Source of the DNA: Azolla caroliniana
Lineage: Eukaryota > Plantae > Polypodiophyta
Direction: 5' to 3'
Assembly (NCBI GenBank): GCA_043228905.1
Contig: JBHGNT010000281.1
Coordinates: 1-40,188, forward strand
Length of the DNA stretch: 40,188 nucleotides
The notes beneath the pieces are model-generated. The model saw only the letters and a program-made list of their open reading frames with translations. It was not told where the DNA came from and searched no databases. Both the position numbers and the translations under genes were made by a program. The first letter of the stretch is position 1, and every line of letters begins with the position of its first letter. This document shows positions 3,844-36,713 of the stretch, piece by piece.

Positions 3844-4281
3844 TGAGGTTTTGGACTAGGAGAAAAGAAAATTCTAAGGCAATTAAGAATATGAAATATG
3901 TTGTGAGAAAGAAAGATATGAAAAACTCGTTAATCCCACGAGTATAGTGTATTAGTGAGTACTCAAATTAAGAGAGAAAAAAAATAGTTAGCAAATTGGT
4001 GAATCCCACGAATATATTATATTAATCAACCCTTGTAAAATAATCAACAACCCCTATACATCTCTCTCTCTTCCTTATATGGTGTTGGAAGAGTCTAAGT
4101 TTATCACATGCAAGCATCATGCTTTTCCTAACTTTAGTTTTCATGCACACTGCATGTGCATGATTAGCTTTCTATCCCATCTTTTCTTTTAACTCGAGTG
4201 TGTATGCATAAATAACTTTTTGTAACATGCATATCTAGAATATTTACATGGAATAAAGTTTAGTATAACTTTAAAATTCAT

Positions 4282-4352: not shown

Positions 4353-4637
4353 ACGTAATAAATATTTTTTAATATTTTATTTTATTTATTATACGTACTT
4401 TAAATCGGATATAGTATTTTACATATTTCACATAGTGTGTGATTCACACTACGACAACGGCGTTCGTATCTAGCATCGCGTCTCGGCGAGCCGGCTTTCG
4501 ATAACCAAAAGCAAGTAATCTTGGGACCAGCACGACTGCAAGCAACGCGGGTCTTTGGTATGCCCTTGAATTCCCACGTTATCGATACCATACGTGAGGA
4601 CTTGAAGACAGATGTTTTCGCTCAAGCCATTCTAGAA

Positions 4638-7595
4638 CATGTTCGTGTTCACAAGTGGAAGGATAAGGAATATTCCGTTTGATTTTGGAGGTCTTTTTGC
4701 TATTTCACAAAACACCTTGATACTGGTATCACATGTTCTCTAAAACTTGATGAAAAAGTTGAAAATTTCACCATTTGGTAAAATTGAAAAATGCGAAATT
4801 TTGGTCAAATACGAAAAGTAACTTTGTGTATTTTTAAAGAAAAATGACAACTAATAAGTTTTTAGATCTTAAAGAAATCAAAAGCAAAGGATTTCAAAAC
4901 AATGAACGTTTTTATTTTATTCGATAAAATGTTGTCTAAATTTGTTACACATAGTTGCACAACAAATACATTTGGGAGTTATTTGCATAAATATCATCAT
5001 TCTTTTTATGAGAATCACTACTATAGATAATATATAATTGTGACTCTTCCTCCTTATTTTCAAATGTACTAGTCAAATCATTGTCTTCACCAAATGGTGT
5101 CTCCAAATTGTGTGGAGTAAATCTTCTTCACATTCAATTTGAGATATCTTCTAGACTTGGTAATATCTCTTTTATTATGTATATCGTTGTTGTCCTTAAA
5201 CATCCAACTTTTGTCAGTGTAAAGTCATACACAATGATATCCACCTAACTAATGTCAATGATAGATGTATTACAAAGGTTTAATGCATCATCACATCCAA
5301 AACTTTACCAATGCAGAATTGGTACCCTAGCTCATGGCCATCTACATGTGTAGTTATTAATATCCCCACCTTGAGTTCTTGTAAGTTTCCTTGTCACTTG
5401 AGTTATGCTCATGTTGTCATCCTTTGTTCCACATAAATGTTTCTCTGTTGTAGATGAACCAAACTATGAAGATCAACATTAAGTGCTTGAAGTGGTCTTG
5501 AGAACCATGAGAATACTTTATAGACCATGTAAATGACATTTGCAAGGTTGAATTACCATCAACACAATTATTAATGGTTTTTTGTTAATCAATGATGCAC
5601 ATGTTCACCATAAGGTATCTTGTTATGCAACATACTTCTTTGCACTATTTGATATGCATCTTTTTCTCTTCTAAAAACAAAGATTTTAGTACGATTCAAG
5701 TTCATGTTTAAAAAACCTCTTTTATTTGAAAAACAAGAAGATTTTTAAACATGAACTCGATATGTTGTATCGAGTTGATGTAAAAAACAGAGTTTTGATC
5801 ATAATTCCATACAATTAAATTCATGTTTAAAGTTTTTTTAACCGGATTAAAAAAAATTTAATAATAATAAGTTGAGCTTGAGTTCATATAAAAACCACAG
5901 TTTTCATCACAATTTGAAACAATGTATCAAGTTCATGTTTAAAGTATATTTTTCTAATTTTTTTTCAATTTTTTTATGGAAAAAAATAATTTTAAACATG
6001 AATTCGATACATTGTCTCGACTTGTGATAAAAAATCTAGTTTTTCATCATTTATTAAAGCTCAAAAAAGAAATTCAAAAAAAACAACAAAAAACCAAAAT
6101 AAATAGAAAAAAAACCAAAAAATTTTAAACCCCCCCCAAAAAAAGCTTTAAACAAGTTAGCTTTTCTACACGAACTCGATACATTGTATCAAGTTTGTGT
6201 CAAAAAGTCGACTTTTCTACACGAACGTGTTGAAAACTCTGTTTTTCTACACCAACTCGATACATAGTATCGAGTTCATGTTGAAAAGCTAACTTTTTGA
6301 CATGAACTCTGTATTGAGTTCATGTTTAAAGCTTTATTTGGGGTTTTTTTTAAAATTTGCTTTTTTTCTTATTATTTTGGTTTTTTGTTTTTTTTTCTTT
6401 TAAAAATTTGAGCTTTAATAAATTATGAAAAAAACAGAGTTTTCATCACAAGTCGATACAATGTATCGAATTCATGTTTAAGATTATTCTTTTCCATAAA
6501 TAAAATTGAAAAAAATCAAAACAAATTGAAAAAATAATTAGAAAAATATACATTAAACATGAACTCGATACATTGTATCGAATTGTGATGAAAATTTTGG
6601 TTTTTATATGAACTCAAGCTCAACTTATTATTATTAAAAAAATTTAAATCCGAGTAAAAAAAACTTTGAACATGAATTCATTACATTGTATGGAATTATG
6701 ATCAAAACTCTGTTTTTTACATCAACTCGATACAACATATCGAGTTCATGTTTAAAAAACTTCTTGTTTTTCAAATAAAAGAGGTTTTTTAAACATGAAC
6801 TCAAATTATACTGAAATCTATGCTTTTACAAGAGAAAAAGATGAATATCGATACTACAAAGATGTATGTTGCACAACAATATACCTTATGGTGAACATGT
6901 GCTTTATTGATTAGCAAAAAACCATTAATAATTGTATTGATGGTAATTGAACTTCGCAAATGCCATTTACTTTACAAATTTTGTAGGGGAATTCTCAAAA
7001 GGAAGAAGAGGATAACATTGTAGATACCTTGATAACTTTGTGATATGTTCAGATTGATATATTAATGTTCACATCTAAAGTTTCACAGTTTTCACAGTTT
7101 ATGAATATCATCTACATTTTAGGAGTTGTGGATTTATCAAAATTGTTTATAAATATTGTCTACATTTCTTGAGTTGTGAATTTATGGATGTTAATGAGCA
7201 CTAAATTTATAGATGATGACATTAAGGATTGCAATGTTATCTCTTATACTTAAAACATTTTCAAGTATAACAAAAGATGTAATCTTAATCTCATCAAGAT
7301 AGTGAAACCATTAATCTTAACTTGTGCCTTGAGTTAACCATTGTGATTTTCTTTAAGTTAACTGCATTTCATATCTGCAAACTCTCAACATTTAAACATT
7401 TACTGAAAAACTATTCAATTTTAGAAATTATCATTTTGAAACTTGTTAAATCTCAAAAAATTAGCAAATTTTACATGTTATTTAAAACATGTGATACTGG
7501 TGTATCAAGTATTTGAAAATTGTCTAAAATCTCAAGATTATGAAAGGAATCTATAAATGGAATGCACAATCCTTCCACTCGTGAACGCAAACGTG
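4638..7595. mobile_element. Non-autonomous TIR DNA transposon (~2.96 kb), superfamily unresolved
   Basis: TIR CATGTTCGTGTTCACAAGTGGAAGGA (4638-4663) matches the reverse complement of 7570-7595, CACGTTTGCGTTCACGAGTGGAAGGA. Flanks are TTCTAGAA and TTCTAGCA. Subterminal inverted GATAC..GTATC motifs lie near 4717-4737 and 7486-7509. Excision restores the integrase frame. Confidence 0.88.
5529..6970. repeat. Large foldback inverted repeat (~700-bp arms, 2-nt centre at 6224-6225) built from palindromic ~45-bp modules
   Basis: The left end GTAAATGACATTTGC..CACATGTTCACCATAAGGTAT mirrors the right end ATACCTTATGGTGAACATGTG..GCAAATGCCATTTAC. The centre is ACACG-AA-CGTGT. The module CATGAACTCGATACAnTGTATCGAGTTCATG recurs along both arms. 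Confidence 0.92.
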
Positions 7596-8517
7596 TTCTA
7601 GCACAAATTGATCCCTCTCGAGCATCTTGTTCACAGTCGCAACAACCAGGTACGGACTATCGACAATTCGAATGTCATGATGGATTACTATTCTTTAAGA
7701 AACTCTTGTATGTTCCTAATGGTACTTGTCGCCTTCAAGTAGTCCAAAACTGTCATGACACATATACAACTGGGAATTTTGGTAGTACTAAAACACTAGA
7801 TTTAGTACAACAATCCTTATGGTGACCCCATATGCGACAATTTGTCGAAGATTTTGTTCGGACTTGTGATACATGTTGTAGAGCAAAAATGCCAAGGCAT
7901 CATCCATATGGTTTATTAGAATCATTACCAATTCCAAACAAGCCATGACAATCCATTGCCCTAGATTTCATCATAGATCTTCCGGTCTCTAAGGGATTTG
8001 AGGCGATCTTAATAGTAGTAGATCGATATACGAAGATGGCCCATTTCCTACCATGTACTAAGGAAATCTCTAGTGAAGAAACTATTGAAATTGTCATGCG
8101 TGAAGTATGTCAGCATCATGGCCTTCCCGATAGTATCATCAATGACCGTGGACCCTAGTTCGTCTCGAAGTTTTGGAAGCACCTCTTTAAAATGCTTAAG
8201 GTCACTTGTAACCTCTCATTTGGCTACCACATGCAAACAGACGGCCAAGCAGAACGAACAAATCAAACGTTGGAGCAGTATCTTCGGTGCTTTTTAAGCT
8301 ATCATCAAGATGACTGGGCGAATATTCTCCACTTCGCCGAATTTGCATATAAAACTTTGTCCACTCATCGACAAAGGTGACACCATTTTATGCTTACACG
8401 GGCTATCACCCCCGATGGTGTGTATTTGAAACCCCAAAGTTACCTACAAATCCTTGTGCAGAGGATCGTTTGGAGCATCTACGTAAGATACAAGCGGATT
8501 TATCTACTCATCTACAT

Positions 8518-8975
8518 TGCAAAAAGTAGCGTGCGGAAGCAAGTATAAAGACCAAACAGAAGGAAGAAAGCTCAGGTTTAATGGAGAGCTTGAGCTTACA
8601 CAGTATACGCGGGAGAGACAAAGAGAGTGTGAGAGAGAAAACACAAGAACTATATTCAACAAAAAAAATACTCAATCTCTATTCACTACTGTATACATAT
8701 GTGTGTTCAATGAACACTTTTATACAAGTCCTAGAAGGACTGACAGAAGTACTGACAGTACTTCAATGCTCATTAAGAGCTCCTACACTAACTCCCAAAT
8801 ATATTCCTCACGGAATATCTTCCCTAATGGCCTCTCGGTTTACGCACCGATCCGGCCCTACCTACGCACCGGTCTGCGTACCGATTTACGCATTCGGCCT
8901 AACCGATCGGTCCCAACCGATCCAGTCCTCGGCTTCTTCAGCCGATCCGGCCGATGTTGAGCTTGTCTCTCAACA
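8518..8975 (-). mobile_element. Solo LTR (458 bp), copia family related to the LTR at 10430-10842
   Basis: TG...CA ends and a perfect 5-bp TSD TACAT (8513-8517, 8976-8980). The reverse complement begins TGTTGAGAGACAAGCTCAAC and shares blocks with the 10430 LTR. Confidence 0.9.
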
Positions 8976-9269: not shown

Positions 9270-10842
9270 CAACCGTGGAGCACCTTTAGTGCACACACTG
9301 GATACTACGGTATGTTAGTGGCACTAAGGATAAAGGTCTGTTATACCGACACGGTATACCTGAAACGTTAGTTAGATATACAGATGTTGATTGGGCTGGT
9401 GATGCATCGGATTGTCGGTCCACCTCTGGATATAGGTTTTCTCTTGGTAGCGCGACTATTCCATGGAGCAGCAAAAATCAACCAACCGTAGCTCTGTTGA
9501 GCATGAAAGCTGAGTATCGGGGCGTTACCATTGCCACCTATGAAACTATACGGTTTCAACGACTGCTGCAAGACCTCTGAATCGAGGTACCGACCCCGAC
9601 CCTGATCTATTGTGATAACGTAAGCAACATACAACTCGCTAAGAACCTTGTATTTCATGCTCGGACAAAGCACATAGAAGTACATTATCATTGTGTGCGT
9701 GAACGGGTCCTAAGCGGTGAAGTTGAACTTCGGTATGTTCACACGGATCAGCAGGTTGCTGACATCTTCACCAAGCCGCTCGGATCAGACAAGTTGCAAC
9801 ACTTCTAGGAGATGCTCAATCTCTAGCAACTCGACGAGCCGCACTTGAGGGGGAGAATGGAGACAAGTAATGGCACCGGACAACGAGCCGACGAGAAAGA
9901 GAGAACCAAGACAGAGGGAGACAAGAAGAAAAAGGAAGCCGAGTCGATCGAAAGAGTCGGCACATCCAGACAAGTCGAAGAAAACGACGATGACAACAGA
10001 GTCAAGAGAGACATAACTGACCAGAGAAGAAGGCCAATACCCGGACATGGTCTGATTTTGTGGAGGGCTTGAAAATGGAAGACGAGTTGGAGACTACCAA
10101 CTCGGTCAAGAGCTGGAACAAATCGAACACAACCGATTCAGTTCAACAATTTGATTCAGAAGAGCTGAATCTGTTGAAGGCCAAGCGAACTAGAGGGCAA
10201 CGAAGACGGCGCCAGAGTTGCAACAACGAAGGAGCTGAGATGGGCTTGTTGAGCAAACAAGTCGATCGAGGAGGTTGAGTAGCGCAAACCAAATGGGTCG
10301 TGGAAGGAGGAATTGGATCAGACGAGGAGCGAGAGCAAGGCGGAAGGACACCAGAAGAGCAGATGAAAGAATCGGCTGCCCCAGACACTAACACCAAGAT
10401 CCGACCTCAAGTTGAGCTTGAGGGGGGAGTGTTGAGCGAGCAAGCTCAACCGGATCTGGATCGGCTGGATAAGCCAGAGCTGGATCGTATCCAGAACTAG
10501 GAGCCGGATCCACGTGTGTACCGGTAGGCCGTATAGAGGTCTATGCTTCTAAACTACTAGGTAGTCATGGTCCTCGTAGTTAGTGCCAGACACTCATATG
10601 AGTATTGAAGTACATAGTACTTCTGTCAATCCCTTGTGGACTTGTATAAAGAGTGTTCACTGAGCACATCCTATGTACAGAGTGTTATTATTTTGAATGG
10701 TTTTTATGTTTTCTACTCTCTTTCTCTCTCCTGTGTATTCTTTGTTCCTAATCTTCCATTAAACCTTTATTCTCTGTTTTCAGTTTTCAATTGTTATTCA
10801 GATAAACCGGTTTGTCAAATCTTCCGCATATTAACTTTAACA
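9270..10842 (+). mobile_element. Ty1/copia 3' remnant: end of RT, RNase H, extra 3' region, PPT and 3' LTR
   Basis: Motifs ILRYVSGT, DWAGD..RSTSGY, AEYR, IYCDN, FHARTKHIEVHYH and VADIFTKPL. PPT GAGGGGGGAG (10420-10429) directly precedes the LTR. Confidence 0.9.
10430..10842 (+). repeat. 3' LTR of the copia remnant
   Basis: Starts TGTTG right after the PPT and ends TTAACA. The end was placed by similarity to the solo LTR end (CTTCCGCA...CA). Confidence 0.75.
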
Positions 10843-12400: not shown

Positions 12401-12530
12401 ACAGCCACCCACACACAGAGTCTCTGTCTCTTGTTTCTTGTCTCTGTCACCCTCACCATAATACTCTGCACACGCGCCCGCTCGCAGTTTGAAAACAAAA
12501 AACAGAGAACAGTGACTGAGCTCTCTGGCT

Positions 12531-13861
12531 ATGGCGGCCTCCTCCTCCTCTGCTCTTGCTCTTGCTCTTGCTCTGCTGGCTTTCCTCTTCATCTCCTCCT
12601 CCTCTTCTTCATTGCTCTGTGCTGCCTCCACTACTCACGTCGTGGGCGAGTCCTCTGGCTGGACCGTACCCGACCGCACCTCTGATTACTCTCGATGGGC
12701 CTCTTCTCGAACCTTCTACGTTGGCGACGTCCTCGGTGAGAACAGAAAAGAACTAGAAAACCAAAAAAATCCTCTTGTCACTTCACATTGTTGTTGTTTT
12801 TTAAACTGCTCCTTTCGTATCTCTGATTCCGTTACAAATGTACGCCTTTATGGCACACATTACTTCTGCGTAGTGTCTTTTCTCTTCTTCATTCCTTTCT
12901 TCTTCTTCTTCTTCTTCTTCTTCTTCTAAATCCGTTACGCGTACTATGAACAGATTCGGTTTTTGTATAAGGTTTTAGAGCTTCTGGTTTCTGATTTCTG
13001 GTTGCGCCATTATTGCCTTGCATACCGACGAACTGAATGCGGTTCTCTCCATATCTCAGCCCACTCCCCCTCCTCAAATCGTAGTGGTTCTGGGCTATGG
13101 AGATAAATCTCAAGCAAATCATTGCTAGCTAACTAGCAGAATCAATCGAAACCCACATTTTTAAGTTATAGAATTTCCGCCCCCCCCTATTCTTTCTGTT
13201 ATCGATCTTAACTGATCGGAAAAACAGATATAGGCTATGGAGATAAATGCATTACCAGAATCATTGCCTGTAATAGAAACGTGAAGCGAACCATGACATA
13301 TGCTTCAACAGAAACCCTAAAACACGTATTTTTTCTTTCTTTTCAAGCTCAGCTTACATATTCCATTGCGCATATATATATATGTCTTTTAAATTTTAGA
13401 AGCTCTCTTTTATGCGACTTATCTTCGTGCTTGATCTTTTGGCAGAGTTCAGGTATGATAGTGCGGAGCACACAGTGCTAAAGGTGACGAGATCGAGCTA
13501 CAGTAACTGCAATATCACAGCTCCAATGGCGACCTTTGCAGATGGGATGTCTAGGATCACCCTCTCCACCAGAGGCTCTTACTACTTCATCTGCGGTGTC
13601 CCGGGGCACTGCGATGCAGGCCAGAAGCTTCAGCTCAACGCAGTTCAGCGACATCATCAAGCTCAGTCCCTCGCATCTCTACCTCCTCCCTCGCCATCGC
13701 CATCTCCTTCCCTCTCTTCGTTATCTCCACCTCCCATCTCTGCAGGTGGACCTACCATGTCTTCATCTTCATCATGTTCATCTTCTGCTCCATCTCCCTT
13801 TCTCCAGATTCTCGTTTCCTCCCTCTGTGCCATTTTTCTTGCTCGCTTCTGCTCTATTTAA
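12531..13861 (+). CDS. Phytocyanin (stellacyanin/mavicyanin-type blue copper protein), probably GPI-anchored; exons 12531-12735 and 13446-13861; 206 aa
   Basis: Signal peptide, HVVGESSGW and YSRWASSRTFYVGDVL|EFRY joined across a phase-1 GT-AG intron. Copper ligands are His (HTV), Cys and His (ICGVPGHC) and axial Gln (GQKL). A Ser/Pro-rich linker and hydrophobic C-terminus follow. Confidence 0.93.
12897..12927. repeat. (TTC)n microsatellite in the phytocyanin intron
   Basis: Directly visible. Confidence 0.9.
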
Positions 13862-20500: not shown

Positions 20501-23500
20501 CATTTGTAACTAATTATAGTTGGAGGGTGGCAACTCCAGACCTGCACTCTCTTTCATCTTTATTATCTCTCTTTTACATTCTCTCTCTTCCTAGATTCTT
20601 CTCTCTCTAGAATTTGCAACTCTTTAAATGCCTTCTCTCTCTTCCACTTTTTCCAAGATATTCCCTCTTATTCCTAGTTTATTGTACATGTTTGGTAGTA
20701 CAAGAGTCACTTAACTACCAAACAACCATTTCACCCACTTTCCCCAGTTTTGTATAAATAGGCTATACCAGCCTCTTTTGTAAAGACTTTTATTTTTGCT
20801 ACTACTTACAAACAAGCTCTACTGTTTGGCTGTGTCTCTACTCTTTGCAACCATTTTTTCTACTGCTGTCTAACAGCCTTCTCACAGCTTGGCTGTGTCT
20901 GTTTTGTTCTAACAACTCTTCCACTGCTGCTATTAACAGCTTTTCTCACATGGTATCAGAGCAGTGAGGTCTCCATATCCTCAGCCTGTTTTTTTTGCCA
21001 AAGAGCACACATACCTATTCTCTTTTATCCCTCCCTCCCAACCCTATAGAGGAGGTTCTCTTAGCAGCCACCCTCCCAACCTATAGAGGAGGTTCTTCGT
21101 TTTTCTTTTCCCCTCATCTGAGCCTCGCCTAGCATCTAGGGAGGAGTAGAAAGCCCTGAGCATCTACCTACAGCTGCTGCAAATTGTCTAGTTGTAGCTC
21201 AAGTGGAGGATATCCATGGCCTCACATGCCACCATTGTTTCATCCACCATTCCCCAACTCCCGAAAGAGTCCATCTTGGATGGGAACAATTACTTGGATT
21301 GGGAATTACAAATAAAGACCTTGCTACAGTACCATTGTCTATGGAATGTAGTCAATGGTAGTGACAAGAAACCACCGGTAACTTTATCCTCTTCAACCAA
21401 ATCAGTTGCTGGCTCATCTAACGCTGAGATTGATGCTTGGCTAGATAAGGATTCTCATGCTCATGCTTTCCTCATGTTTAATATTAAACCGAGCATGGCT
21501 TGTCAATTTCAAGATACAGATGAAGAGACAGCCAATGAACTATGGGCAGCCATAAAAAAGAGGTATCATCGAGCTAATCATGCCCAAATGATAGCTATTC
21601 AGAGCCAACTAGCAAATCTCAAGATTCATGACACTCCCAACATCATGGATCAAATAATGCAATTTGTTACTCTCTAAAAGGAACTAGTTTCTTTGGGAAG
21701 CAAGTCAACTAAGTTGAGTTTGTGCATTGTCTAATGTTAAAGTTGCCAGAGTCATTCTCAGCCTTTTGTGACACAATTTTTCTTCTTCCCAACACGCTTA
21801 ATATGAATACATTTCTTGGCATGCTACAAGGCAAGGCAACAAGGAAGAAAAGTGCTCAAACTTCCAATGAGACGCTTCTACATGCGAAAAGTAAAGGCAA
21901 GTGGAAGCAAAATGGCAACTCCTACAACAAACCCAATCCGAGACCACCAAACAACCCGGCCTTCAAGGAGGTCACCTGTCATTATTGTGGTTACAAAGGT
22001 CACATTCAGCCCGACTGTGGTTAGTAGACAGTGGTGCCACTGCACACATGACTTATGACAAATCCATTTTGCATGATGTGAAGCCTAGCTCCTACCAAAT
22101 CTCCATCGGAGATGCCTCAAGCATTGAGGCTTCGTTTGTTGGTAATGTGTTTCTGAACACTTCTTCAAATGATGAAGCCGTCGTTCTTCAAGATGTGCTA
22201 CATGTGCCTCACATCTCTGCCAACCTACTTTTGGTCTACTGAATCACTAAGCAAGGTTATGGAGTCTACTTTGATAGCTCAGTTCTGGAAGTCATTGACA
22301 CCAACAACCTACAAATTGTAGCTAGTGGCACACAAGAAGGGGGTTTATATCGCTTGAAAGGTTCTCGTAGCCCCTTGGAAAAATCCAAATCTCATCTTCT
22401 TCATCTTCTTCAAGGCTCTCATGCATTGGTGGCACAAGAATATCCCACGTTGTGGCATGCTAGGTTTGGTCACCTCAACTACGATTCTCTACAAAAGCTC
22501 TCCTCTTCATAGCTAGTTGAGGGTTTGCCTATTTTCAAAACTCCCAATACCCCATGTGTTGCTTGTCTTCACGGAAAGCAACATCGAGAGCCTTTCCCTC
22601 ATGAAGCCACTCACTATGCAACATCTATCTTGGAGTCAGTGCACATGGATCTTTGTGGTTCCATGAAAACCACTACTCTTGGTGGTGCATGCTACTTCAT
22701 GCTTATCATTGATGTAATATCTTATTTGGTCTTATAGGCCATTTTGGCCTCTTAAAAGACGTTAATATATCTTTCTTTCTTTCTTTCTCAAAGACAAAAG
22801 CTACAATATACCTAACTTGAGAATCTCACATGTGCCAAAAACCAGATTCCCTCGTTTCTTCTCTTTTCATCTTATTTACTTTTATATTTACTGTGTAATA
22901 TTTATTTTATTTTTATTTGTTCTCAAAGATGAGACAACACTCAAGATGTAATCTCTCTCATTTGGTCTTATAGGCCATTTTGGCCTCTTAAAAGACGTTA
23001 ATATATCTTTCTTTCTTTCTTCTTTTTCGTAAGGTTTGGGTTTATTTTCTTGTAGAAAAATCTCAAGCCTTCACCAAATTTCAAGAATGGGTAGCTCTTG
23101 TGGAGAACACGACAACAAAGAAAGTTCGAAAGATCAAGTCCGACAATGGTGGAGAGTTTATCTCCCAAGCTTTCCACCATTTTTTCTCTCAACGAGGCAT
23201 TGCTCGCCAATTTCTACACCCAATACTCCTCAACAAAATGGAGTTGTGGAAAGGAAGAACCGGATCGTTCAAGAGATGTCTCATACAATGCTATCTCAAT
23301 CTGATCTTCCTCTCTTGTTTTGGGGTGAAGTTGTCAACACAGCAGTCTACATCATCAACTGCTGCCCAACAAAAGCAGTTCCTGCAATGACCCCTGCGGA
23401 AGCATTTATAGGTGTAAAGCCCTTAGTATCTCATTTTAAAGTCTTTGGTTGTGATGCTTATGTTCACATTTCAGATCATAAAAGGACGAAATTTGAGTCC

Positions 23501-26500
23501 AAAACCAAGAAATGCAAATTTCTTAGTTACAACACACAATCTAAAGCCTACAGGTTATGGGATTTAGAATCAAAGTTCCTAGTCATCTCTAGGGATGTTC
23601 ATTTTGTGGAGTCTAAACCGGATGACAGTAGGATTTCACATGAGTTCACGGTTGAAATTCTAGCTCCTCCGGAATCTCCTATTTTACAAGATGTCTCACC
23701 TTCAAGGCCCCCATCTCCTCCTACTCAACCCCTAACTTCACCAACAATTCAAACCTCTCCCTCAACTCCACTCGTTTCCCCTCCCTCTACACACCAGTTT
23801 CCACCACTTCCCCCAAGTGGCTTCAAGCCACCTTTCGTGATTCTCATCTCTCCGATGCTGAACATCATGAGTATACATCTGGTTCTCCAACCAACATGAA
23901 AAGAACACGTAGGTCACAACGGCCTCTTCACTCATGCAACTTTGCCTTACGGTGCACTGTTGTGCAATCACAAGAATCCACAACAGCAAAAGAGACCCTT
24001 GTTCTTCCAAAGTGGAAAGCAACAATGGAAGTTGAACTTGATTCCATTGAGCAGAATCATACATGGGAGCTGGTCCCATGGCCTCAACATCGACAAGTCA
24101 TTGGACTGAAATGGATTTTCAAGACCAAGTACCATGTTGATGGTACTTTGGATAAGCACAAGGCACGTTTAGTTGCAAAAGGTTGCTCACAAGTGGAAGG
24201 AGTGGATTACGAGGAAACATTTGCTCCAACAACAAGGTACACCTCTATTCGATGTGTGCTTGCGCTTGCTGCTCACCACAAATGGCCCATCTTTCAAATG
24301 GATGTCAAGTCAGCCTTCCTTAATGGTGACTTGAAAGAGGAAGTTTATGTTGAACAACCTCCAGGTTTTGAGATTTCAAAGCGGGAAAACATGGTCTACA
24401 GGTTACACAAAGCCTTGTATGGATTAAAGCAAGCTCCGAAAGCTTGGCATGACAAAATTGATACCTTCTTTCTCTCACTTGGGTTTACGCATTGTTATGC
24501 TGACAACAATCTCTATGTCTTTTCCCAAGAAAATCTGCTATGCTTGATCATATTATATGTTGATGACCTTCTAATTACAGGGTCCCTTGTTTCTAAAATC
24601 GAGGAGCTTCGTGCTGACCTTAAAACCACATTCGAAATGACTGATCTAGGACTTCTCCATTGCTTCATAGGTATGGAGGTCTATCAATCAAATGGTGGTA
24701 TCTTCCTCAGCCAACATAGGTATCTCAGCCAGCTCCTTCAGACCTATGGCATGTCAAATTGCAGGCCACTCTCTTGTTCGATGGATCCTAACTCAAAGCT
24801 ATCTCATGAAGATGATTCTCCCATATTTGAAGATATCACCAAATATAGAAAGTTAATTGGGTCTCTTCTTCACTTACACCAGGCCTGATTTGTCCTATAA
24901 TGTGAGTATTCTCAACCAATTCTCAAGTGCTCCGAAACAAAGTCATTGGCAAGCAGCAATACGAGTTCTTAGGTACTTGGCCAACACACTCGACTATGGT
25001 CTATCTTTTAGAAGTGGCATTGAGTTTGTTGGCTACTCGGATGCTAATTGGGCAGGTGATATTGATTCTAGAAGGTCCACATTTGGCTATTGTTTTATGT
25101 TAGGTTCATGCTTGATTTCTTGGAAATCAAAGAAGCAAATTTCAGTTTCTACTTCATCAACAAAAGTTGAATATTGAGCCTACTTGGATACTTTTTGTGA
25201 ATTGCTATGGTTAATGCAATTATTTTATCACATTGGTGTTTTGCAAGACTCTCCTATAGCAGTTTTCATTGACAACCAAAGTGCTTGTGCCTTGGCACAT
25301 AGCTCGACATTTCATGGTAGAACAGAACATATTGAAGTGCACTACCATTTAGTTCGTGAATTAGTGAAATCACTAGTCATCAACATAGCATATCGTCCTA
25401 CTCAAGAAAATGTGACTGATTTATTTACTAAGCCCCTTCCAAGGCAAGCCATTGATCAGCTCCTTGGTCGACTCAATGTTGGACTGCCGTTCTAGAGCTG
25501 AGAGGAGGTGTTGGAGGGTGGCAGATCCAGATCTACACTCTCTTTCATCTTTATTATCTCTTTTTTACATTCTCTCTCTTCCTAGATTCTTCTCTCTCTA
25601 GAATTTGCAAGTCTTTAAATGCCTTCTCTCTCTAAAATTTGCAACGCTTTAAATGCCTTCACTCTCTTCCACTTTTTCCAAGATATTCCCTCTTATTCCT
25701 AGTTTATTGTACCTGTTTGGTAGTACAAGAGTCATGTAACTACCAAACAACCATTTCACCCGCTTTCCCCAGTTTTATATAAATAGGCTATACCAGCCTC
25801 TTTTGTAAAGACTTTTATTTTGCTGCTACTTACAAACAAGCTCTACTGTTTGGCTGTGTCTACTCTTTGCAACCATTTTTTCTACTGCTGTCTAACAGCC
25901 TTCTCACAGCTTGGCTGTGTCTATTTTGTTCTAACAACTGTTCTGCTGCTGCTATTAACAGCTTTTCTCACAATTATTTTGAATTGGGCTGTCTTTTAGG
26001 GGCTAACAACTGGTAGTCTTCCTACCTTCATTGATGTTGGGAACAGCTTTGGGGCGGCAGCTATTGTGGAGGACAACATCATTAACCAGGTTTCTTGATA
26101 TTATTTTATTTAGTCTTTATTTTACTTGAACAGCTTTAGGGTGGCTGCTATTGTGGAGAACAGCATTATTCACCAGGTTTTGTGATGTTAATTTGTATTT
26201 TTTCAGCTTTCTAGCAATGGAAAAAGAATCATCATGATGGGGGATGATACATGGCTGCAGTTGTTTCCAACAGAATTTACAAAAACATATCCCTTTCCCT
26301 CATTCAATGTCAAAGATTTAGACACTGTAATGACATTCTCAACCTCTACAGGATGCTTTTTATCTCTATTGCTATATTTATGTGAAAGTAAAAGTTGCCC
26401 AAATATGTTGGTGATGTATTGAAATGATTGCTTGCAATATGTGAAGTGTAAACAGCAACATGGCATTACAACATATTAAAATCCAGGACAAATAGCTTAT

Positions 26501-32500: not shown

Positions 32501-35500
32501 ACTAACCCATTGATGCTGTTGATATATGATGGATACTATCTATACCTCTCCTTTATTAGGCACACATTGATCTTTGTATCAGGCATTGTGGCTATAGGTT
32601 GTAAACCTGTATACTAGACAGATTTCCTAGGAAGAGGTACCTTGGAGGAGATCTTGAGGTCTACATGGTGTACATTTCAATATTTCACCTTTTTTACTCC
32701 ACAAAAGATGAGAAATGCCATTGATAGGTTACAATTTGGAAAGACCCAAGGTCATGATGGCTTGTTTGCTGAACTTTTATTTGTCTGTGACACGTTGCCC
32801 CCTCTTCTTTCATAGAGCTATGTGTGAAGGTTTCCCCAGTATATGGACAGAAAATAGTATTGTACTGATCTTCAAGTGCGGAGATCCCATGATACCTAGC
32901 AATTATAGTTTAGCAATACTTGGCTAAACTATATAGTTCAATCCCAAAGTCAGAATTGAATGTATGGGCAGAGAGAAATGACTCTTGCGCAGCTGGACAG
33001 GCAGTTTTCTGAAAGGGGCTCTCAATGTCAGATAACAAATTGACCCTTTGAGTCCTTATTCAGGAGGGAAGAGCGCATAAAAGGAGAATCTGCTGTTGCT
33101 TTGTGGGATTCTGGAAAGCTTTCGACATTGGACTGTGCAATTAGTTCATGTAAGGACTAGAAGCCCATGGAGTCCCTATAGATATGCAATAAGTACTATA
33201 TGAATCAGTGTCAACAAAAAGTCTGCTCTCCTATTGGGTCATTAGAGGCCGTGGCTAACATGAGTTGTTAAAGTGGGGTCTCTATCACAACACTTGAAAT
33301 GGGTCACAATAGATCAGGAATAGTAATGTGTCATGCCCGTTGGCCACAACCATCTGTGCCACAGTCCTTGTTTCCATATGATCGAAAAATAAAGGCCATT
33401 ATCACCCAGTACTGAAAGTACTTCTTTCGCTTCGGAGATCTCTCTGTTTTGGAGCGTTCCATGTCAAACATTTTTTAAAGGCAGAAGTTTGGTCATCTAA
33501 GTTCAGAATCTATTGGCCATTTTGGCCTCTTGAAGGATGTTAATATAGCTTTATTTCTTTTCTTTCTTTTTTTCATCTACTGCTGATACAAGTGATTCGC
33601 TTTATGCATTGGTTGTTTTTAGTAAGATATTTCTTTGGCATGATATCTGATTATTTTTGTAAGTGCAGGTCATGTGCTTTCTCGCAATGAATTTTCTTAT
33701 GGGGCGCTTTGGTTCTAACACTGTTTTCAAGGATGTGGAATTTCAAACAAATGAAACAGTATCATACTTGACCACGTCAGCTGTTATTGAGCAATCTGTT
33801 GTCATCTGCTTCACTCTGTACTTGCCATTGCTTGTCTTGGGCTTTTACACTGTTAAAAAGCTGTGGAGCTCTTGTTTTCTGCAAAGTAGTTCTTCTTGGG
33901 TCGTGTTCTTTGGTGTACCCCTATCATATATAGCCTTAATGCTTCATTGGTTAGTTGGTGACCTTGTCAAGCTGCATTTGCTTTTCATTCCTGAAACTGC
34001 CAAAGAACTTGTGAGGTTGCGGTTACCTCAAATAGTTTATTACATTGTAGCTCTTCAGACTTTGTTGTTGGTTTATGAGATCAAAGACATTGAGCACAAG
34101 AATATGAAATTTCGGCTGAAAAATCTTCTTGAAGATGCTGCCATGTTGTGTATTGCTGTATGGGGCAGTCTGATATTATTGCTGCTTGGGAGGCAGGGAC
34201 CCCTTATCACTTTGATTGCTGCTATAGAAGGTAGAAAAATCGGTTTCTACAGTTTTGACTCCTAATATATTCATGATTGTTCCGTTTAAGTTGAACCAGG
34301 CCTCAAGATTTCATTATTTTCCCATCTTAACTTGGGTCAGTGGGTATTTATGCGTCAGTAGAGGATATGTATAAAATGGCCAGCCGTGCTGAATGAAGTC
34401 TAGGATTTTTTTTGAATACATATGATGGGATCTTCTATTCTCATGTGCATATAAAAGCTTTAGGAATGATGGTGGAATATTCTGTTTTCATCACTGCAAA
34501 TGTCAGCGTTCCAAACTTCATTGAAATTTTTTAATGAATATTATACACATTCTTAATGTGAATTTCACAGTTATACAAGGTGTTGGTTGAAGCTTCATAT
34601 ACCAGAATCTTATGTCTCTTTTCTAGGTTGGTCTCTTATGAACATGCAATTTCCATGTTCATCTCCATTGAAAGTACCTGCTGTGGATGGAGTATACAGT
34701 GTCCCAGATTACTCTTTTGCAAATTTTCAGTGGAGTCTTTTTGCAGTACAGATATTCTTTTCAACGGGTCATAGGTAACTGTGCATCAATACACTTCATA
34801 TTTTAGGATGCAATTTGAAAATTCCCCATGAATTCAATTGTTCTATGATTACTGCTCGTTCCATAGATGTGCTTTTGATGGACTACGGTATGCTGCTGCC
34901 TTCGTAGGGTAAGGATTTAATTTTTTGGGTGCATGTATAGAACCATGTATTTTCACTGATTAATTTGTCTTCATCTACAGATTTGATCAATTCAACATAT
35001 ATCGTCAGGGAATTCTTCTTGGGATTGATACATTTGGAGCTTCTCATATACTCCCCGTGGTTGGACTAGCAGTGCTGGTTGCAAAGAGAAATTCAGGGAC
35101 TGGAATGTTTTCCTCCAATGCATTTTATAGGTCACAGTTTTTTCAGGTTCTTACACTGCCATTTTTTGTATTATAGTAAGCTATAATCCATGATTATTTA
35201 CTCTTGGTCATGCCAGTTATACAAGGTGACATTTTTTGTATTATAGTATGCTATAATCCGTGATTATTTTATAAGCTATAATCTGTGATTATTGTACTCT
35301 TAGTCAAGCCAGTTATATGAGGTCAAATTAACACTTTGTACGCGAAGGTAGATACATTATTAGTGAAAGAGGTAAATCTTGACCAGAAATGAACTAGACA
35401 CCCTTTATGAAACAGCCACTGACCGGTAGTGTGGTGGTGTATATGATGCATGACGTCTGATCCATATAGACTAGAAAGAAAGAAAGATATATTTACTTCT

Positions 35501-36713
35501 CATAAGAGGCGAAAATGGCTTACAAGACTGAATAAAAGATGACACGAGAACAATGTATCATATTGGAGAAAAACCAAAATTTGTAAATTAGTAAGTAAAT
35601 TAGTAAAACTGCCTAGGGTACCAGATATTCCTGATAGTTAACACACAAATGGTGTAATTTTAAATGAATGAGAACTTTTTGTTTTCAAAAATAGGGACCA
35701 ATAATGGTTTACGAAACGGTAGAAACTACAATTGGTTTTGTTTATATTGGGTGAACCTCAGCTGAAAAAATTTACCATTCTAAACGTGGTCTATGAAATC
35801 AAAAGTTTCTGTTCCAACTTCCAGCCATATGAATGTTTACAAAGTGCATGATTGAAAGTTTTTAAACAATCAGCTTAGTTTTCAATCCATCTTTGTCCCA
35901 AATTTGTGGCAACTAATTGGGATGTTCCAGATATAAGATGATCCTCTAGATTCAAATACAGCTTCGTACGTACCGAGAATCAGGCACAAGGTGCCCAACA
36001 GTAAGGGATTTTGTATGCTCCTTTTAGCGATACAGATTTTGCTTTTGGAAAGAAAAACATAAGCTTATAGCAAATCGGGAGAACATTTTGGCCATAGAAA
36101 CTAAATTTTAAGTATAGGCAAAACAATCAATGTATGCCTGCATATTTACTAGGATATCCATTAGTTTTCAAGTCTTACCAGAATACCATTTAGCTTTTAC
36201 TGCTTGACATTCAAGTATAGGGCAAAACCACCAATTTACAACTTTTTGCATATTTACTAGTATGCCCCTCAAATTTCAAGAATTTCTGGACAGCACTCAA
36301 TTTTTACTGCCATACCCTAGACAATGACACTCTATTTTGTTTATAAGAATACAAAAATTTAAAATGTATAACTCATCTTGTATAATGCCATTAAATCCTA
36401 AATTTGACGTCTTCCATTTGAATGTAGGCATTATTAATGTATGGGCTGGTTCGGACGGTGACAACCTTTTTCACTACTGTGTGCGTAACAATTCAGAGAC
36501 GTCATTTAATGGTATACTGCCTTCATTCGTATCTTTTGTTGTTGTTTTGTTCCTTTTTTGTCGTTTCTAATGTGTTTACTCTCTTACTTGATTGTTGATA
36601 TTTAGGTATGGGGATTATTTGCTCCTAAATTTGTTTTTGATGCTGCTGGCTTGCTGGTGACTGACGGCATATTGTTTCTCTTCTATGCATTGTGCCTTCC
36701 TCTTCTTAAATAG
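17585..36713 (+). CDS. PIGO: GPI ethanolamine phosphate transferase 3 (PIG-O/GPI13), 20 exons, ~1064 aa
   Basis: Exons, all GT-AG and frame-consistent, 3195 nt in total: 17585-17898, 19524-19561, 19639-19757, 26000-26089, 26207-26326, 26657-26740, 26827-26904, 26995-27120, 27313-27393, 28587-28625, 28707-28762, 29110-29260, 31569-32265, 32386-32477, 33669-34230, 34627-34774, 34867-34908, 34981-35146, 36428-36511, 36606-36713. Motifs: [82 protein letters not shown] and [14 protein letters not shown]. Confidence 0.95.
18359..18551. repeat. Near-perfect tandem duplication, 95-bp unit x2, in PIG-O intron 1
   Basis: GATCAGAG(T/A)GGAAAATAATAGAGTGATCTG...GGTATCAA starts at 18359 and again at 18454, with about 2 mismatches. 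Confidence 0.92.
18552..19375 (+). mobile_element. RTE-like LINE 3' fragment (C-terminal Cys/His region and 3' UTR) in intron 1
   Basis: Decayed SHQ.EI.IGRY...EE.IC.C...EEHY...FYEI.G.YH.LFKQGF. The 3' end TTGTTCTCAAAGAC..AAGATGTAATCT..GTTAATATATCT-CTTT is shared with the 22715-23027 insert. Confidence 0.65.
20518..20950 (+). repeat. 5' LTR (433 bp; begins AG instead of TG)
   Basis: Direct repeat of 25509-25972, roughly 96% identical by eye. TATAAATA near 20753. Confidence 0.93.
20951..20962 (+). promoter_or_regulatory. Primer-binding site complementary to initiator tRNA-Met
   Basis: TGGTATCAGAGC immediately after the 5' LTR. Confidence 0.93.
22715..23027 (+). mobile_element. Short retroposed insert (two tandem RTE/SINE 3' ends) in the copia integrase
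   Basis: Interrupts YFMLIID|..RKVWVYFL. Two copies of TTTGGTCTTATAGGCCATTTTGGCCTCTTAAAAGACGTTAATATAT(CTTT)n. Confidence 0.8.
25509..25972 (+). repeat. 3' LTR (464 bp, with an internal ~34-bp tandem duplication)
   Basis: TG...CA ends, follows the PPT, and carries an extra copy of CTCTCTA.AATTTGCAA..CTTTAAATGCCTTC absent from the 5' LTR. Confidence 0.93.
26041..26200 (+). repeat. Diverged tandem duplication of the exon 4 3' half plus its splice donor
   Basis: GAACAGCTTTGGGGCGGCAGCTATTGTGGAGGACAACATCATTAACCAG|GTTT (26041) versus GAACAGCTTTAGGGTGGCTGCTATTGTGGAGAACAGCATTATTCACCAG|GTTT (26128). Confidence 0.88.
27895..28280. repeat. Two diverged ~220-bp tandem units in intron 9
   Basis: CAATGGT.CTTTACAGAGA.AA.ATACAT.TT.CTACTTAGG...CCAGTTT...GACAT.AG at ~27912 and ~28133. 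Confidence 0.6.
29650..30070 (+). mobile_element. Highly decayed Ty1/copia RNase H remnant in intron 12, possibly followed by an LTR remnant
   Basis: [18 protein letters not shown] (29886-29940, with a frameshift) and a purine tract AGAAGGGAG near 30059. Confidence 0.6.
30593..30813. repeat. Diverged tandem duplication (~125-bp period)
   Basis: TTTTCATTTGGAATTA...TAAGATGACAGATGAGGAAACC...TTATGGA occurs twice. Confidence 0.7.
32690..33575 (+). mobile_element. Decayed RTE-like LINE fragment (RT N-terminal part and 3' tail) in intron 14
   Basis: [16 protein letters not shown]...SNY, AKLYS, GQA.F..G and CCFV.F.KAFD-like motifs. Ends in GGCCATTTTGGCCTCTT..GTTAATATA.(CTTT)n at 33516-33573. Confidence 0.7.
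35161..35317. repeat. Short tandem duplication (~70-bp unit, 2-3 partial copies) in intron 18
   Basis: ATTTTTTGTATTATAGTA.GCTATAATCC.TGATTATT is repeated, and GCCAGTTATA occurs twice. Confidence 0.75.
35473..35536 (-). mobile_element. Isolated antisense copy of the RTE/SINE 3' tail
   Basis: Reverse complement reads TTATTCAGTCTTGTAAGCCATTTTCGCCTCTTATGAGAAGTAAATATAT(CTTT)n. Confidence 0.65.

What the first reader, a model, noticed from the sequence alone, without database searches (positions are those of the whole stretch)
5529..6970. 1.44-kb 'palindrome of palindromes' foldback
Two ~700-bp arms meet at ACACG-AA-CGTGT (6219-6230) with almost no spacer. The arms hold roughly a dozen full or partial copies of a self-complementary module, TTTT.ACA(C/T)GAACTCGATACAnTGTATCGAGTTCATGT.AAAA (e.g. 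~5745, 5990, 6162, 6242, 6440, 6553, 6713), separated by A/T tracts. It can fold as one long hairpin or many short ones. A related GATAC..GTATC motif sits just inside both outer TIRs, suggesting a shared protein-binding site. Modular long inverted repeats are known from Foldback/FARE-type elements, but I see no convincing TSD here. Possible roles are a transposase-binding array, a hairpin small-RNA source or a cruciform.
Basis: partly seen in the sequence, partly recalled or inferred. Interest (0 to 1): 0.7.

Follow-up and report, generated by a model that had tools for sequence, protein, structure and literature searches.

The report
Foldback core of gutted plant transposon
This 1.4-kb hairpin is a real mirror-image duplication inside a 3-kb, multi-copy plant jumping gene that has lost its working enzyme genes but kept and doubled a row of short palindromes, which likely serve as docking sites for a protein made by its intact relatives.

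Summary
The foldback is real: arms 5529-6223 and 6226-6970, 616 of 686 aligned columns identical, with nine full modules against 0.16 in shuffles. It is not an inserted Foldback/Mutator element. It lies inside a 2.96-kb TIR element (4636-7597) that interrupts a Gypsy pol gene. The outer ~165 bp of each arm is decayed coding sequence of a DUF7869 transposase, which runs unbroken across the left arm's edge; that explains the missing TSD. The exact 23-bp module core occurs in a relative with the same TIR, in an intron-like segment of an N6/N4 DNA-methyltransferase gene. Diverged contigs from three studies bridge the outer junctions, and depth over the foldback is of the same order as over the flanks, so it is a family feature. 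Best reading: a non-autonomous, likely Sola-type deletion derivative that joined the transposase 3' end to the parent's palindrome array, made a U-turn at one module, and then spread in trans. The array likely binds the parent's accessory methylase protein (untested). A Mu-killer-like hairpin RNA role and neutral hitchhiking remain open. New variant of a known kind; moderate interest.

The parts
4632..4635 (.). Left target-site duplication, CTAG (alternative parse: TA at 4633-4634 with G4635 as first base of the element)
   Evidence: Same 4-mer at 7598-7601; empty-site joints skip 2966 nt in 4 of 4 runs
4636..4664 (+). Left terminal inverted repeat of the outer element (begins AACA)
   Evidence: 29 of 33 identical to the right end, TSD included; same TIR in 8 metagenome loci
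4718..4731 (.). Left subterminal GATAC-N2-GTATC motif
   Evidence: only the GTATC half is kept in most related ends
4996..5674 (-). Decayed 3' end of a DUF7869 transposase gene (about residues 634-907 of the 908-aa relative P0004; stops, frameshifts, an internal deletion; catalytic region absent)
   Evidence: tblastn E 5e-20 and 3e-17 with P0004, 2.8e-31 with the L005 ORF; profile hits; DUF7869 at P0004 387-582
5529..6223 (+). Left arm of the foldback; 5529-~5695 is transposase coding sequence continuous with the flank, the rest is the palindrome array
5696..6802 (.). Doubled A/T-rich palindrome array (24% GC); full modules at 5754, 5911, 6001, 6173, 6254, 6450, 6562, 6675, 6724, each 23 nt
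   Evidence: exact core in L003 at 2740
6213..6236 (.). Axis of the foldback: the two flanks of a module with its inner 21 nt missing; spacer AA at 6224-6225
   Evidence: Alignment of the centre to module 6173 shows one 21-nt gap
6226..6970 (-). Right arm: inverted copy of the left arm
6802..6970 (+). Inverted second copy of a transposase coding piece (about residues 655-712 of P0001)
   Evidence: tblastn 6802-6891, 43% over 30 aa, E 0.033; profile iE 0.002; mirror of 5529-5697, 87% identical
6971..7568 (.). Right-end non-coding DNA of the element, with a subterminal GATAC-N4-GTATC motif at 7493
   Evidence: 7433-7598 is 77% identical to the right end of L001 and 7460-7598 73% to L003, both of which carry a methyltransferase gene; 6971-7310 has no match
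7569..7597 (-). Right terminal inverted repeat (ends GTGTT)
7598..7601 (.). Right target-site duplication, CTAG (or TA at 7599-7600)
7602..8360 (+). Host sequence: broken Gypsy-type pol (integrase zinc finger and core), interrupted by the element
   Evidence: Pfam Integrase_H2C2 E 6.6e-16, rve E 1.8e-08; empty-site joints

Best explanation
The foldback is an internal inverted duplication inside a 2.96-kb non-autonomous DNA transposon, likely of the Sola type, that kept both ends, the 3' end of the transposase gene and a doubled row of palindromes which likely act as docking sites for the accessory DNA-methyltransferase protein supplied by intact relatives. Shown: TIRs, TSD and empty site; transposase remnant running across the arm edge; module core inside a relative's methyltransferase gene; diverged family copies that share the junctions. 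Inferred origin: repair synthesis on a full-length parent left the transposase gene for the array, folded back at one self-complementary module, copied array plus ~165 bp of transposase backwards, and jumped to the right end; the centre module lost its core. Inferred spread: parent transposase moved the element in trans to some hundreds of sites, with near-perfect arms that decayed afterwards. Inferred function: the array recruits the parent's accessory protein (ParB-like plus amino-methyltransferase in earlier notes and in an algal Sola1), which would mark or shield the gene-less copy; doubling the array would double the sites.
For: Transposase codons continue across 5529 without a break, and reappear inverted at 6802-6891. 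Relative L005 has the same TIR and an uninterrupted transposase frame through the place where the window switches to the array. Right ends L003 and L001 with the same TIR carry an N6_N4_Mtase gene (E 1.8e-08 and 0.04). The core is matched 20 of 20 at L003 2740, once in 19,330 nt of loci, 0 in 100 shuffles, within a GT..AG segment 2644-2837 between coding-like stretches. The fold axis is a module missing its core. Diverged contigs bridge 6970/6971 (X1, 34 other letters in 342), 5529 (X2, X5) and the transposase/array junction (X6). Mean summed depth, foldback versus left and right flank: X1 20,458 / 24,742 / 28,242; X6 4,092 / 7,207 / 10,857, with single contigs at 34-66 and 9-16. At 12 of 12 listed arm-mismatch sites the family majority restores symmetry. 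Published plant and algal Sola1 elements have AAC termini and 4-bp TSDs, and Sola1-1_Ec32 carries a ParB-methyltransferase gene.
Against: No locus fetched here holds transposase, array and methyltransferase together; the parent's layout is pieced from separate contigs and from unreviewed earlier notes. L003 has only one perfect and one degenerate module, and no transposase in its 2.7 kb upstream. No ParB family matched the putative first exon of L003. Binding and methylation are untested. One derivative family is one event, so keeping the array may be chance. Module spacing shows no significant helical phasing (p 0.08). TSD length is ambiguous, and my TIR pattern forced the leading G. Depth is by the tool's own statement no copy number, and is lower over the foldback in X6. 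The 16 sites were those the tool listed as best supported, out of 70 arm mismatches.
Confidence: 0.6

Rival explanations
1. Same origin, but the array and its doubling are neutral: a one-off repair accident carried along because the two ends alone suffice for mobilisation.
For: Only one derivative family is seen; repair accidents giving inverted duplications are known from Mu killer and Ac/Ds; self-complementary modules would favour template switches at the array whatever their function; no phasing.
Against: A long near-perfect palindrome is normally unstable (own knowledge), yet it persisted through amplification; arm identity is higher in module-bearing segments (97%, 93%, 91%) than in the transposase piece (87%), although the innermost module segment is only 82%.
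Confidence: 0.25
2. Mu-killer-like silencer: read-through transcripts fold into a ~700-bp hairpin that yields siRNAs against the parent's transposase and array, and this is the foldback's main effect.
For: The arms hold ~165 bp of transposase coding sequence at 87% identity and six perfect runs of 21-74 bp; the RNA fold is one stem; precedent in maize.
Against: The family appears to have amplified after the foldback formed, which needs an unsilenced parent; no promoter is evident; the transposase part is far shorter than Mu killer's ~1300 bp.
Confidence: 0.1
3. The module block 5696-6802 is a separate Foldback/MITE-type element that inserted into the transposase gene, the modules being its own transposase sites.
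For: The block has modular long inverted repeats and ends in half modules.
Against: It does not explain the inverted transposase piece outside the block; no TSD; depth over the block is not above that of the flanks; no empty-site joint for it among the 15 joints shown in each (240 and 148 not shown); the core lies inside a related element's gene.
Confidence: 0.04
4. Assembly or amplification artefact.
For: No listed contig spans the centre.
Against: 70 mismatches and 68 gap columns between arms; outer junctions bridged in runs of three studies.
Confidence: 0.01

Closest known systems
Sola1-1_Ec32 of Ectocarpus (PMC12477816; passages and one supplementary table row seen)
   Same: TIR element with AAC termini, 4-bp TSD and an accessory gene joining a ParB-like domain to a predicted N4C/N6A methyltransferase, proposed to bind and modify its own element
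   Different: 21.5 kb, autonomous, 282-bp TIR; no foldback derivative mentioned in the passages seen. Here both genes are gone and only the array is kept and doubled; transposase homology to Sola1-1_Ec32 was not tested
Moss and fern Sola clusters 4006-4009 (PMC12973397 Table S2; rows seen, sequences cut at 400 letters)
   Same: 26-32-bp TIRs, 4-bp TSD, seed-free plants; cluster_4009 TIR begins AACAC and ends GTGTT like this element under the CTAG parse
   Different: TIR sequence differs after the fifth base; about 10-11 kb autonomous elements; internal sequence could not be compared
Mu killer of maize (PMC3440606, passages) and Ac composite insertions (bioRxiv 10.1101/2020.01.07.897926, abstract)
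   Same: Internally deleted transposon derivative with an inverted duplication that includes transposase sequence
   Different: Mu killer is a single locus with two copies of the same end and ~1300 bp of transposase in the stem; this element keeps both ends, is multi-copy, and its stem is mostly a non-coding palindrome array; no RNA data here
Plavaka accessory gene PAG3 with adjacent inverted-repeat arrays, red alga Bostrychia (bioRxiv 10.1101/2025.02.11.637652, one passage)
   Same: Tandem arrays of inverted repeats inside a DNA transposon, proposed as binding sites of a ParB-like accessory protein
   Different: Different superfamily; ParB fused to an oxygenase; array beside an intact gene, not doubled in a gene-less derivative
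Foldback/FARE-type Mutator elements (features recalled)
   Same: Long modular A/T-rich inverted repeats
   Different: There the repeats are the element's termini with a long TSD; here they are internal, have no TSD and include transposase codons of a non-Mutator family

Membership tests
Sola DNA transposons | Short TIRs at both ends | tested here: met
   29 of 33 identical; shared with 8 loci
Sola DNA transposons | 4-bp TSD | tested here: inconclusive
   CTAG on both sides fits, but a TA parse fits the same empty site; the search pattern forced the disputed G; one insertion only
Sola DNA transposons | Termini like published plant/algal Sola1 (AACAC, AACCG) | tested here: inconclusive
   AACA..GTGTT under the CTAG parse; depends on the parse
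Sola DNA transposons | Transposase homologous to Repbase Sola1/2/3 with DDD triad | not testable with these tools
   No Repbase library; defining papers not held. Relatives are DUF7869 with conserved DGMDQ, QLDN and GHTH motifs
Sola DNA transposons | Catalytic region present in this copy (autonomy) | tested here: not met
   Only residues ~634-907 of P0004 are kept; motifs at 369 and 448 are absent
ParB-methyltransferase transposons (Sola1-1_Ec32 type), as parent | Amino-methyltransferase gene in elements with this TIR | tested here: met
   L003 N6_N4_Mtase E 1.8e-08; L001 E 0.04
ParB-methyltransferase transposons (Sola1-1_Ec32 type), as parent | ParB-like domain fused to it | tested here: inconclusive
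   No Pfam or PHROG match for the broken putative first exon of L003
ParB-methyltransferase transposons (Sola1-1_Ec32 type), as parent | Transposase and accessory gene on opposite strands of one element | tested here: inconclusive
   Orientation relative to the two ends fits (L005 left end, L001/L003 right ends), but no contig holds both
Foldback/FARE-type Mutator elements | Long modular inverted repeats (recalled) | tested here: met
Foldback/FARE-type Mutator elements | The long repeats are the element's ends, flanked by a 9-11-bp TSD (recalled) | tested here: not met
   No TSD; left arm edge lies within continuous transposase codons
Foldback/FARE-type Mutator elements | MULE-family transposase | tested here: not met
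   8 full-length relatives scanned: DUF7869 in 8, no MULE family
Moss Tc1-like PpTc1/PpTc2 | CAGT..ACTG termini, 338-aa DD34E transposase (PMC4054914, part 1 read) | tested here: not met
   Termini (G)AACA..GTGTT(C); ~900-aa DUF7869 relatives
Mu-killer-type hairpin silencers | Inverted duplication that includes transposase sequence | tested here: met
Mu-killer-type hairpin silencers | Transcribed, yields siRNAs, silences the parent in trans | not testable with these tools
   No RNA data laid

The most novel reading that the evidence does not exclude
A gene-less transposon family that hijacks its parent's self-marking system: it discarded transposase and methyltransferase but doubled the palindrome array to draw the parent's ParB-type methylase, gaining a non-plant methyl mark or protection from silencing and out-multiplying the parent. 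It would be a natural deletion map showing that the array is a cis-acting element, and it hands over a defined 23-bp target in hundreds of copies for direct 6mA/4mC calling in a land plant.
Probability: 0.25. Interest if true: 0.72.

Novelty: new variant of a known kind. Interest (0 to 1): 0.42.

Why it matters
Algal papers propose that ParB-type accessory proteins bind and modify their own transposons, without a test. Non-autonomous derivatives tend to keep what is needed in cis (own knowledge). A high-copy derivative that lost both genes yet kept and doubled the internal array is indirect genetic support for a cis role, and it gives a precise, abundant target for binding assays and modified-base calling. 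If the array is neutral, this is an ordinary repair-born foldback derivative and matters little.

Tried and rejected
No whole genome was held, so copies could not be counted or paired for TSDs. Rfam: 0 matches in the window. Six-frame Pfam scan of the element's flanks: 0 families in 12 readings; direct homolog search with the decayed frame: none of 79 candidates; identity came only through L005. TIR pattern and transposase profile in viral contigs: 0 loci. Homolog search with a methyltransferase exon: none of 377 candidates. PDB sequence search with the transposase profile: 2 rows, best E 0.12; full-length model too poor (pLDDT 49) and fold search without a match at E 0.001. No RNA holder listed. 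Neither read-laying run resolved the terminal base or bridged the centre. I first read the terminus as G with a TA TSD, then dropped that as unproven because the pattern forced the G. PpTc1/PpTc2 rejected (PMC7466625 passages). Helical phasing not significant. CpG retention in modules (19 CG in the array against 1-6 in each other segment) was considered as a sign of protection, but several module CpGs have decayed and no fair control exists; not used. Paper searches for a description of this derivative found none: (listings only, except papers named elsewhere); the library lacks most subscription journals and Repbase, and bioRxiv supplements were closed. Earlier-finding look-ups by sequence, words and near place returned nothing.

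Full report
Observation. The foldback is present as described: arms 5529-6223 and 6226-6970 across a 2-nt spacer, 616 of 686 aligned columns identical, 68 gap columns. A 23-nt self-complementary core occurs 9 times with at most 5 mismatches, all inside it, against 0.16 in 100 block shuffles of the window; half modules, one short variant and the centre make about a dozen. The + strand folds as one stem. There is no TSD at its edges, no Rfam match and no second copy of the element in the window.

The outer element. A 33-nt inverted match (29 identical) at 4632-4664 and 7569-7601 bounds a larger element that interrupts a Gypsy-type pol gene (integrase domains directly to the right). Contigs of 4 of 4 runs laid skip exactly 2966 nt here. 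That length fits a 2962-nt element AACA..GTGTT with a CTAG duplication, or a 2964-nt element with a TA duplication. Eight metagenome loci carry the TIR; their flanks are not TA-specific, but my pattern forced the leading G, so they cannot place the terminus. Published moss, fern and brown-algal Sola elements have 4-bp TSDs, and two listed Sola1 termini begin AACAC and AACCG, which favours the CTAG parse. The host is likely a seed-free plant: the only named close transposase homologs are from the fern Ceratopteris; that the Gypsy flanks look moss-like is my recall.

What the arms are made of. Locus L005 is a left end followed by the 3' part of a transposase gene with a DUF7869 domain; it led to 18 full-length proteins of 865-932 aa and 7,922 representatives at E 0.001 or better. 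The window's 4996-5674 (minus strand) is the decayed 3' end of this gene, about residues 634-907 of P0004, without the catalytic region. The codons run on across 5529: P0001 residues 663-717 map to 5674-5513 and 724-796 to 5495-5277. So the left edge of the foldback is not an insertion point. The right arm ends in an inverted copy of the same codons (6802-6891). Between them lies the A/T-rich array (5696-6802).

Where the array comes from. Right-end loci L003 and L001 carry an N6/N4 DNA-methyltransferase gene pointing to the right TIR. L003 holds the module core with 20 of 20 specified bases at 2740 and a degenerate one at 2791; shuffles of the 19,330 nt of loci give none at that stringency. 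Both lie in a GT..AG segment (2644-2837) between coding-like stretches upstream of the methyltransferase exons. Unreviewed earlier notes on this genome describe full-length elements with transposase, a ParB-methyltransferase gene and a palindrome array in its first intron; I could confirm the methyltransferase and the intron-like position in L003, not the ParB domain, and I could not see whether their palindrome has the same sequence. The gene pairing is published for Sola1-1_Ec32 of Ectocarpus, and inverted-repeat arrays beside a ParB-type accessory gene for red-algal Plavaka elements.

A family feature. Contigs that differ from this copy by 10-15% bridge the right arm's outer junction (X1, 6792-7143), the left arm edge (X2, X5) and the transposase/array junction (X6). 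Summed depth over the foldback is of the same order as over the flanks (X1 20,458 against 24,742 and 28,242; X6 4,092 against 7,207 and 10,857), while single contigs stand at 34-66 and 9-16. The tool warns that depth is no copy number; 'some hundreds of copies, many with the foldback' is a rough inference. Of 16 listed variant sites inside the foldback, 1 has no partner, 12 are arm mismatches and in all 12 the majority letter restores symmetry, and 3 (two pairs) are sites where both arms share a variant. X1 lists 189 variant places over the 3,011 nt laid, about 6%; twice that is near the 10% arm divergence. The arms were therefore probably near-perfect when the family spread. No listed contig spans the centre.

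Mechanism. Shown: anatomy, transposase continuity, the module in a relative's methyltransferase gene, and that the axis is a module lacking its inner 21 nt. Inferred: three template switches during repair of a full-length parent (transposase to array; U-turn at a self-complementary module; back-copied transposase to right end), then mobilisation in trans. Inferred and untested: the modules bind the parent's accessory protein, which would mark or shield the copy. The subterminal GATAC..GTATC motifs have other spacers and only their GTATC half is kept in most relatives, so a shared transposase site is weakly supported. Phasing of the modules is not significant (p 0.08). Rivals: neutral accident (0.25); Mu-killer-like hairpin silencer (0.10; precedent; six perfect runs of 21-74 bp); separate Foldback insertion (0.04); artefact (0.01).

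Comparison and novelty. It works like a non-autonomous deletion derivative, and resembles Mu killer in having an inverted duplication with transposase sequence. It is not a Foldback/FARE or Tc1 member. Sola membership is likely but unproven: TSD parse ambiguous, Repbase profiles unavailable. My searches listed no description of such a derivative; they miss most subscription journals, Repbase and bioRxiv supplements. Papers seen: PMC4054914 part 1 of 5; passages of PMC7466625, PMC5751038, PMC4455052, PMC12477816, PMC12973397, PMC3440606, PMC9033089 and bioRxiv 2025.02.11.637652; abstract of bioRxiv 2020.01.07.897926; supplement rows of PMC12477816, PMC12973397 and PMC3627910. Verdict: real, explained in origin, a new variant of a known kind; interest 0.42, carried by its use as a natural pointer to the cis target of a transposon-borne methylase.

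Noticed in passing
P0039 / window 5011-5495 (-): The C-terminal domain of this transposase family is predicted as an SH3-like beta barrel (pLDDT 80-94 over most of residues 11-130); best fold matches are BAH domains (Z 6.0, rmsd 3.9, 82 aligned; Foldseek E 0.013). Weak, within the range of common folds, but a chromatin-reader lead.
   Followed up: partly
window 20519-25972: Copia-type element (RVT_2) with LTRs 20519-20950 and 25510-25972, 89% identical with gaps, inside a multi-exon gene that looks like a GPI ethanolamine-phosphate transferase (about 17.5-34.3 kb; weak Phosphodiest hit; name recalled).
   Followed up: no
window about 12500-13860 (+): Phytocyanin-like gene (Cu_bind_like E 3.7e-17).
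   Followed up: no
window 8574-8773 and 10598-10766: Inverted pair of about 200 nt, 70% identical, probably two related LTRs in opposite orientation in the nested retroelement block.
   Followed up: no
window 22711-22785, 22945-23021, 33511-33571, 35473-35544: A short repeat of about 70 nt, twice inside the copia element and twice further right, one inverted.
   Followed up: no
L005 2047-2084, L008 near 945-965; window 4650-4664: Left ends of relatives carry a short tandem duplication of the inner TIR motif that this copy lacks; family contigs show it too.
   Followed up: no
L003 1-2700: This relative has the methyltransferase gene and right TIR but no transposase in the 2.7 kb upstream; it holds an 800-nt-spaced and a 283-nt-spaced direct repeat instead: possibly another independent derivative.
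   Followed up: partly
L009 1077-2165: A distant DUF7869-like match (30%, E 1e-9) in a short contig of a bacterial MAG; likely eukaryotic carry-over (inference).
   Followed up: no
window 5857/6638 and 5590/6909: Both arms share a variant that differs from many family contigs: a subfamily marker or arm-to-arm conversion.
   Followed up: no
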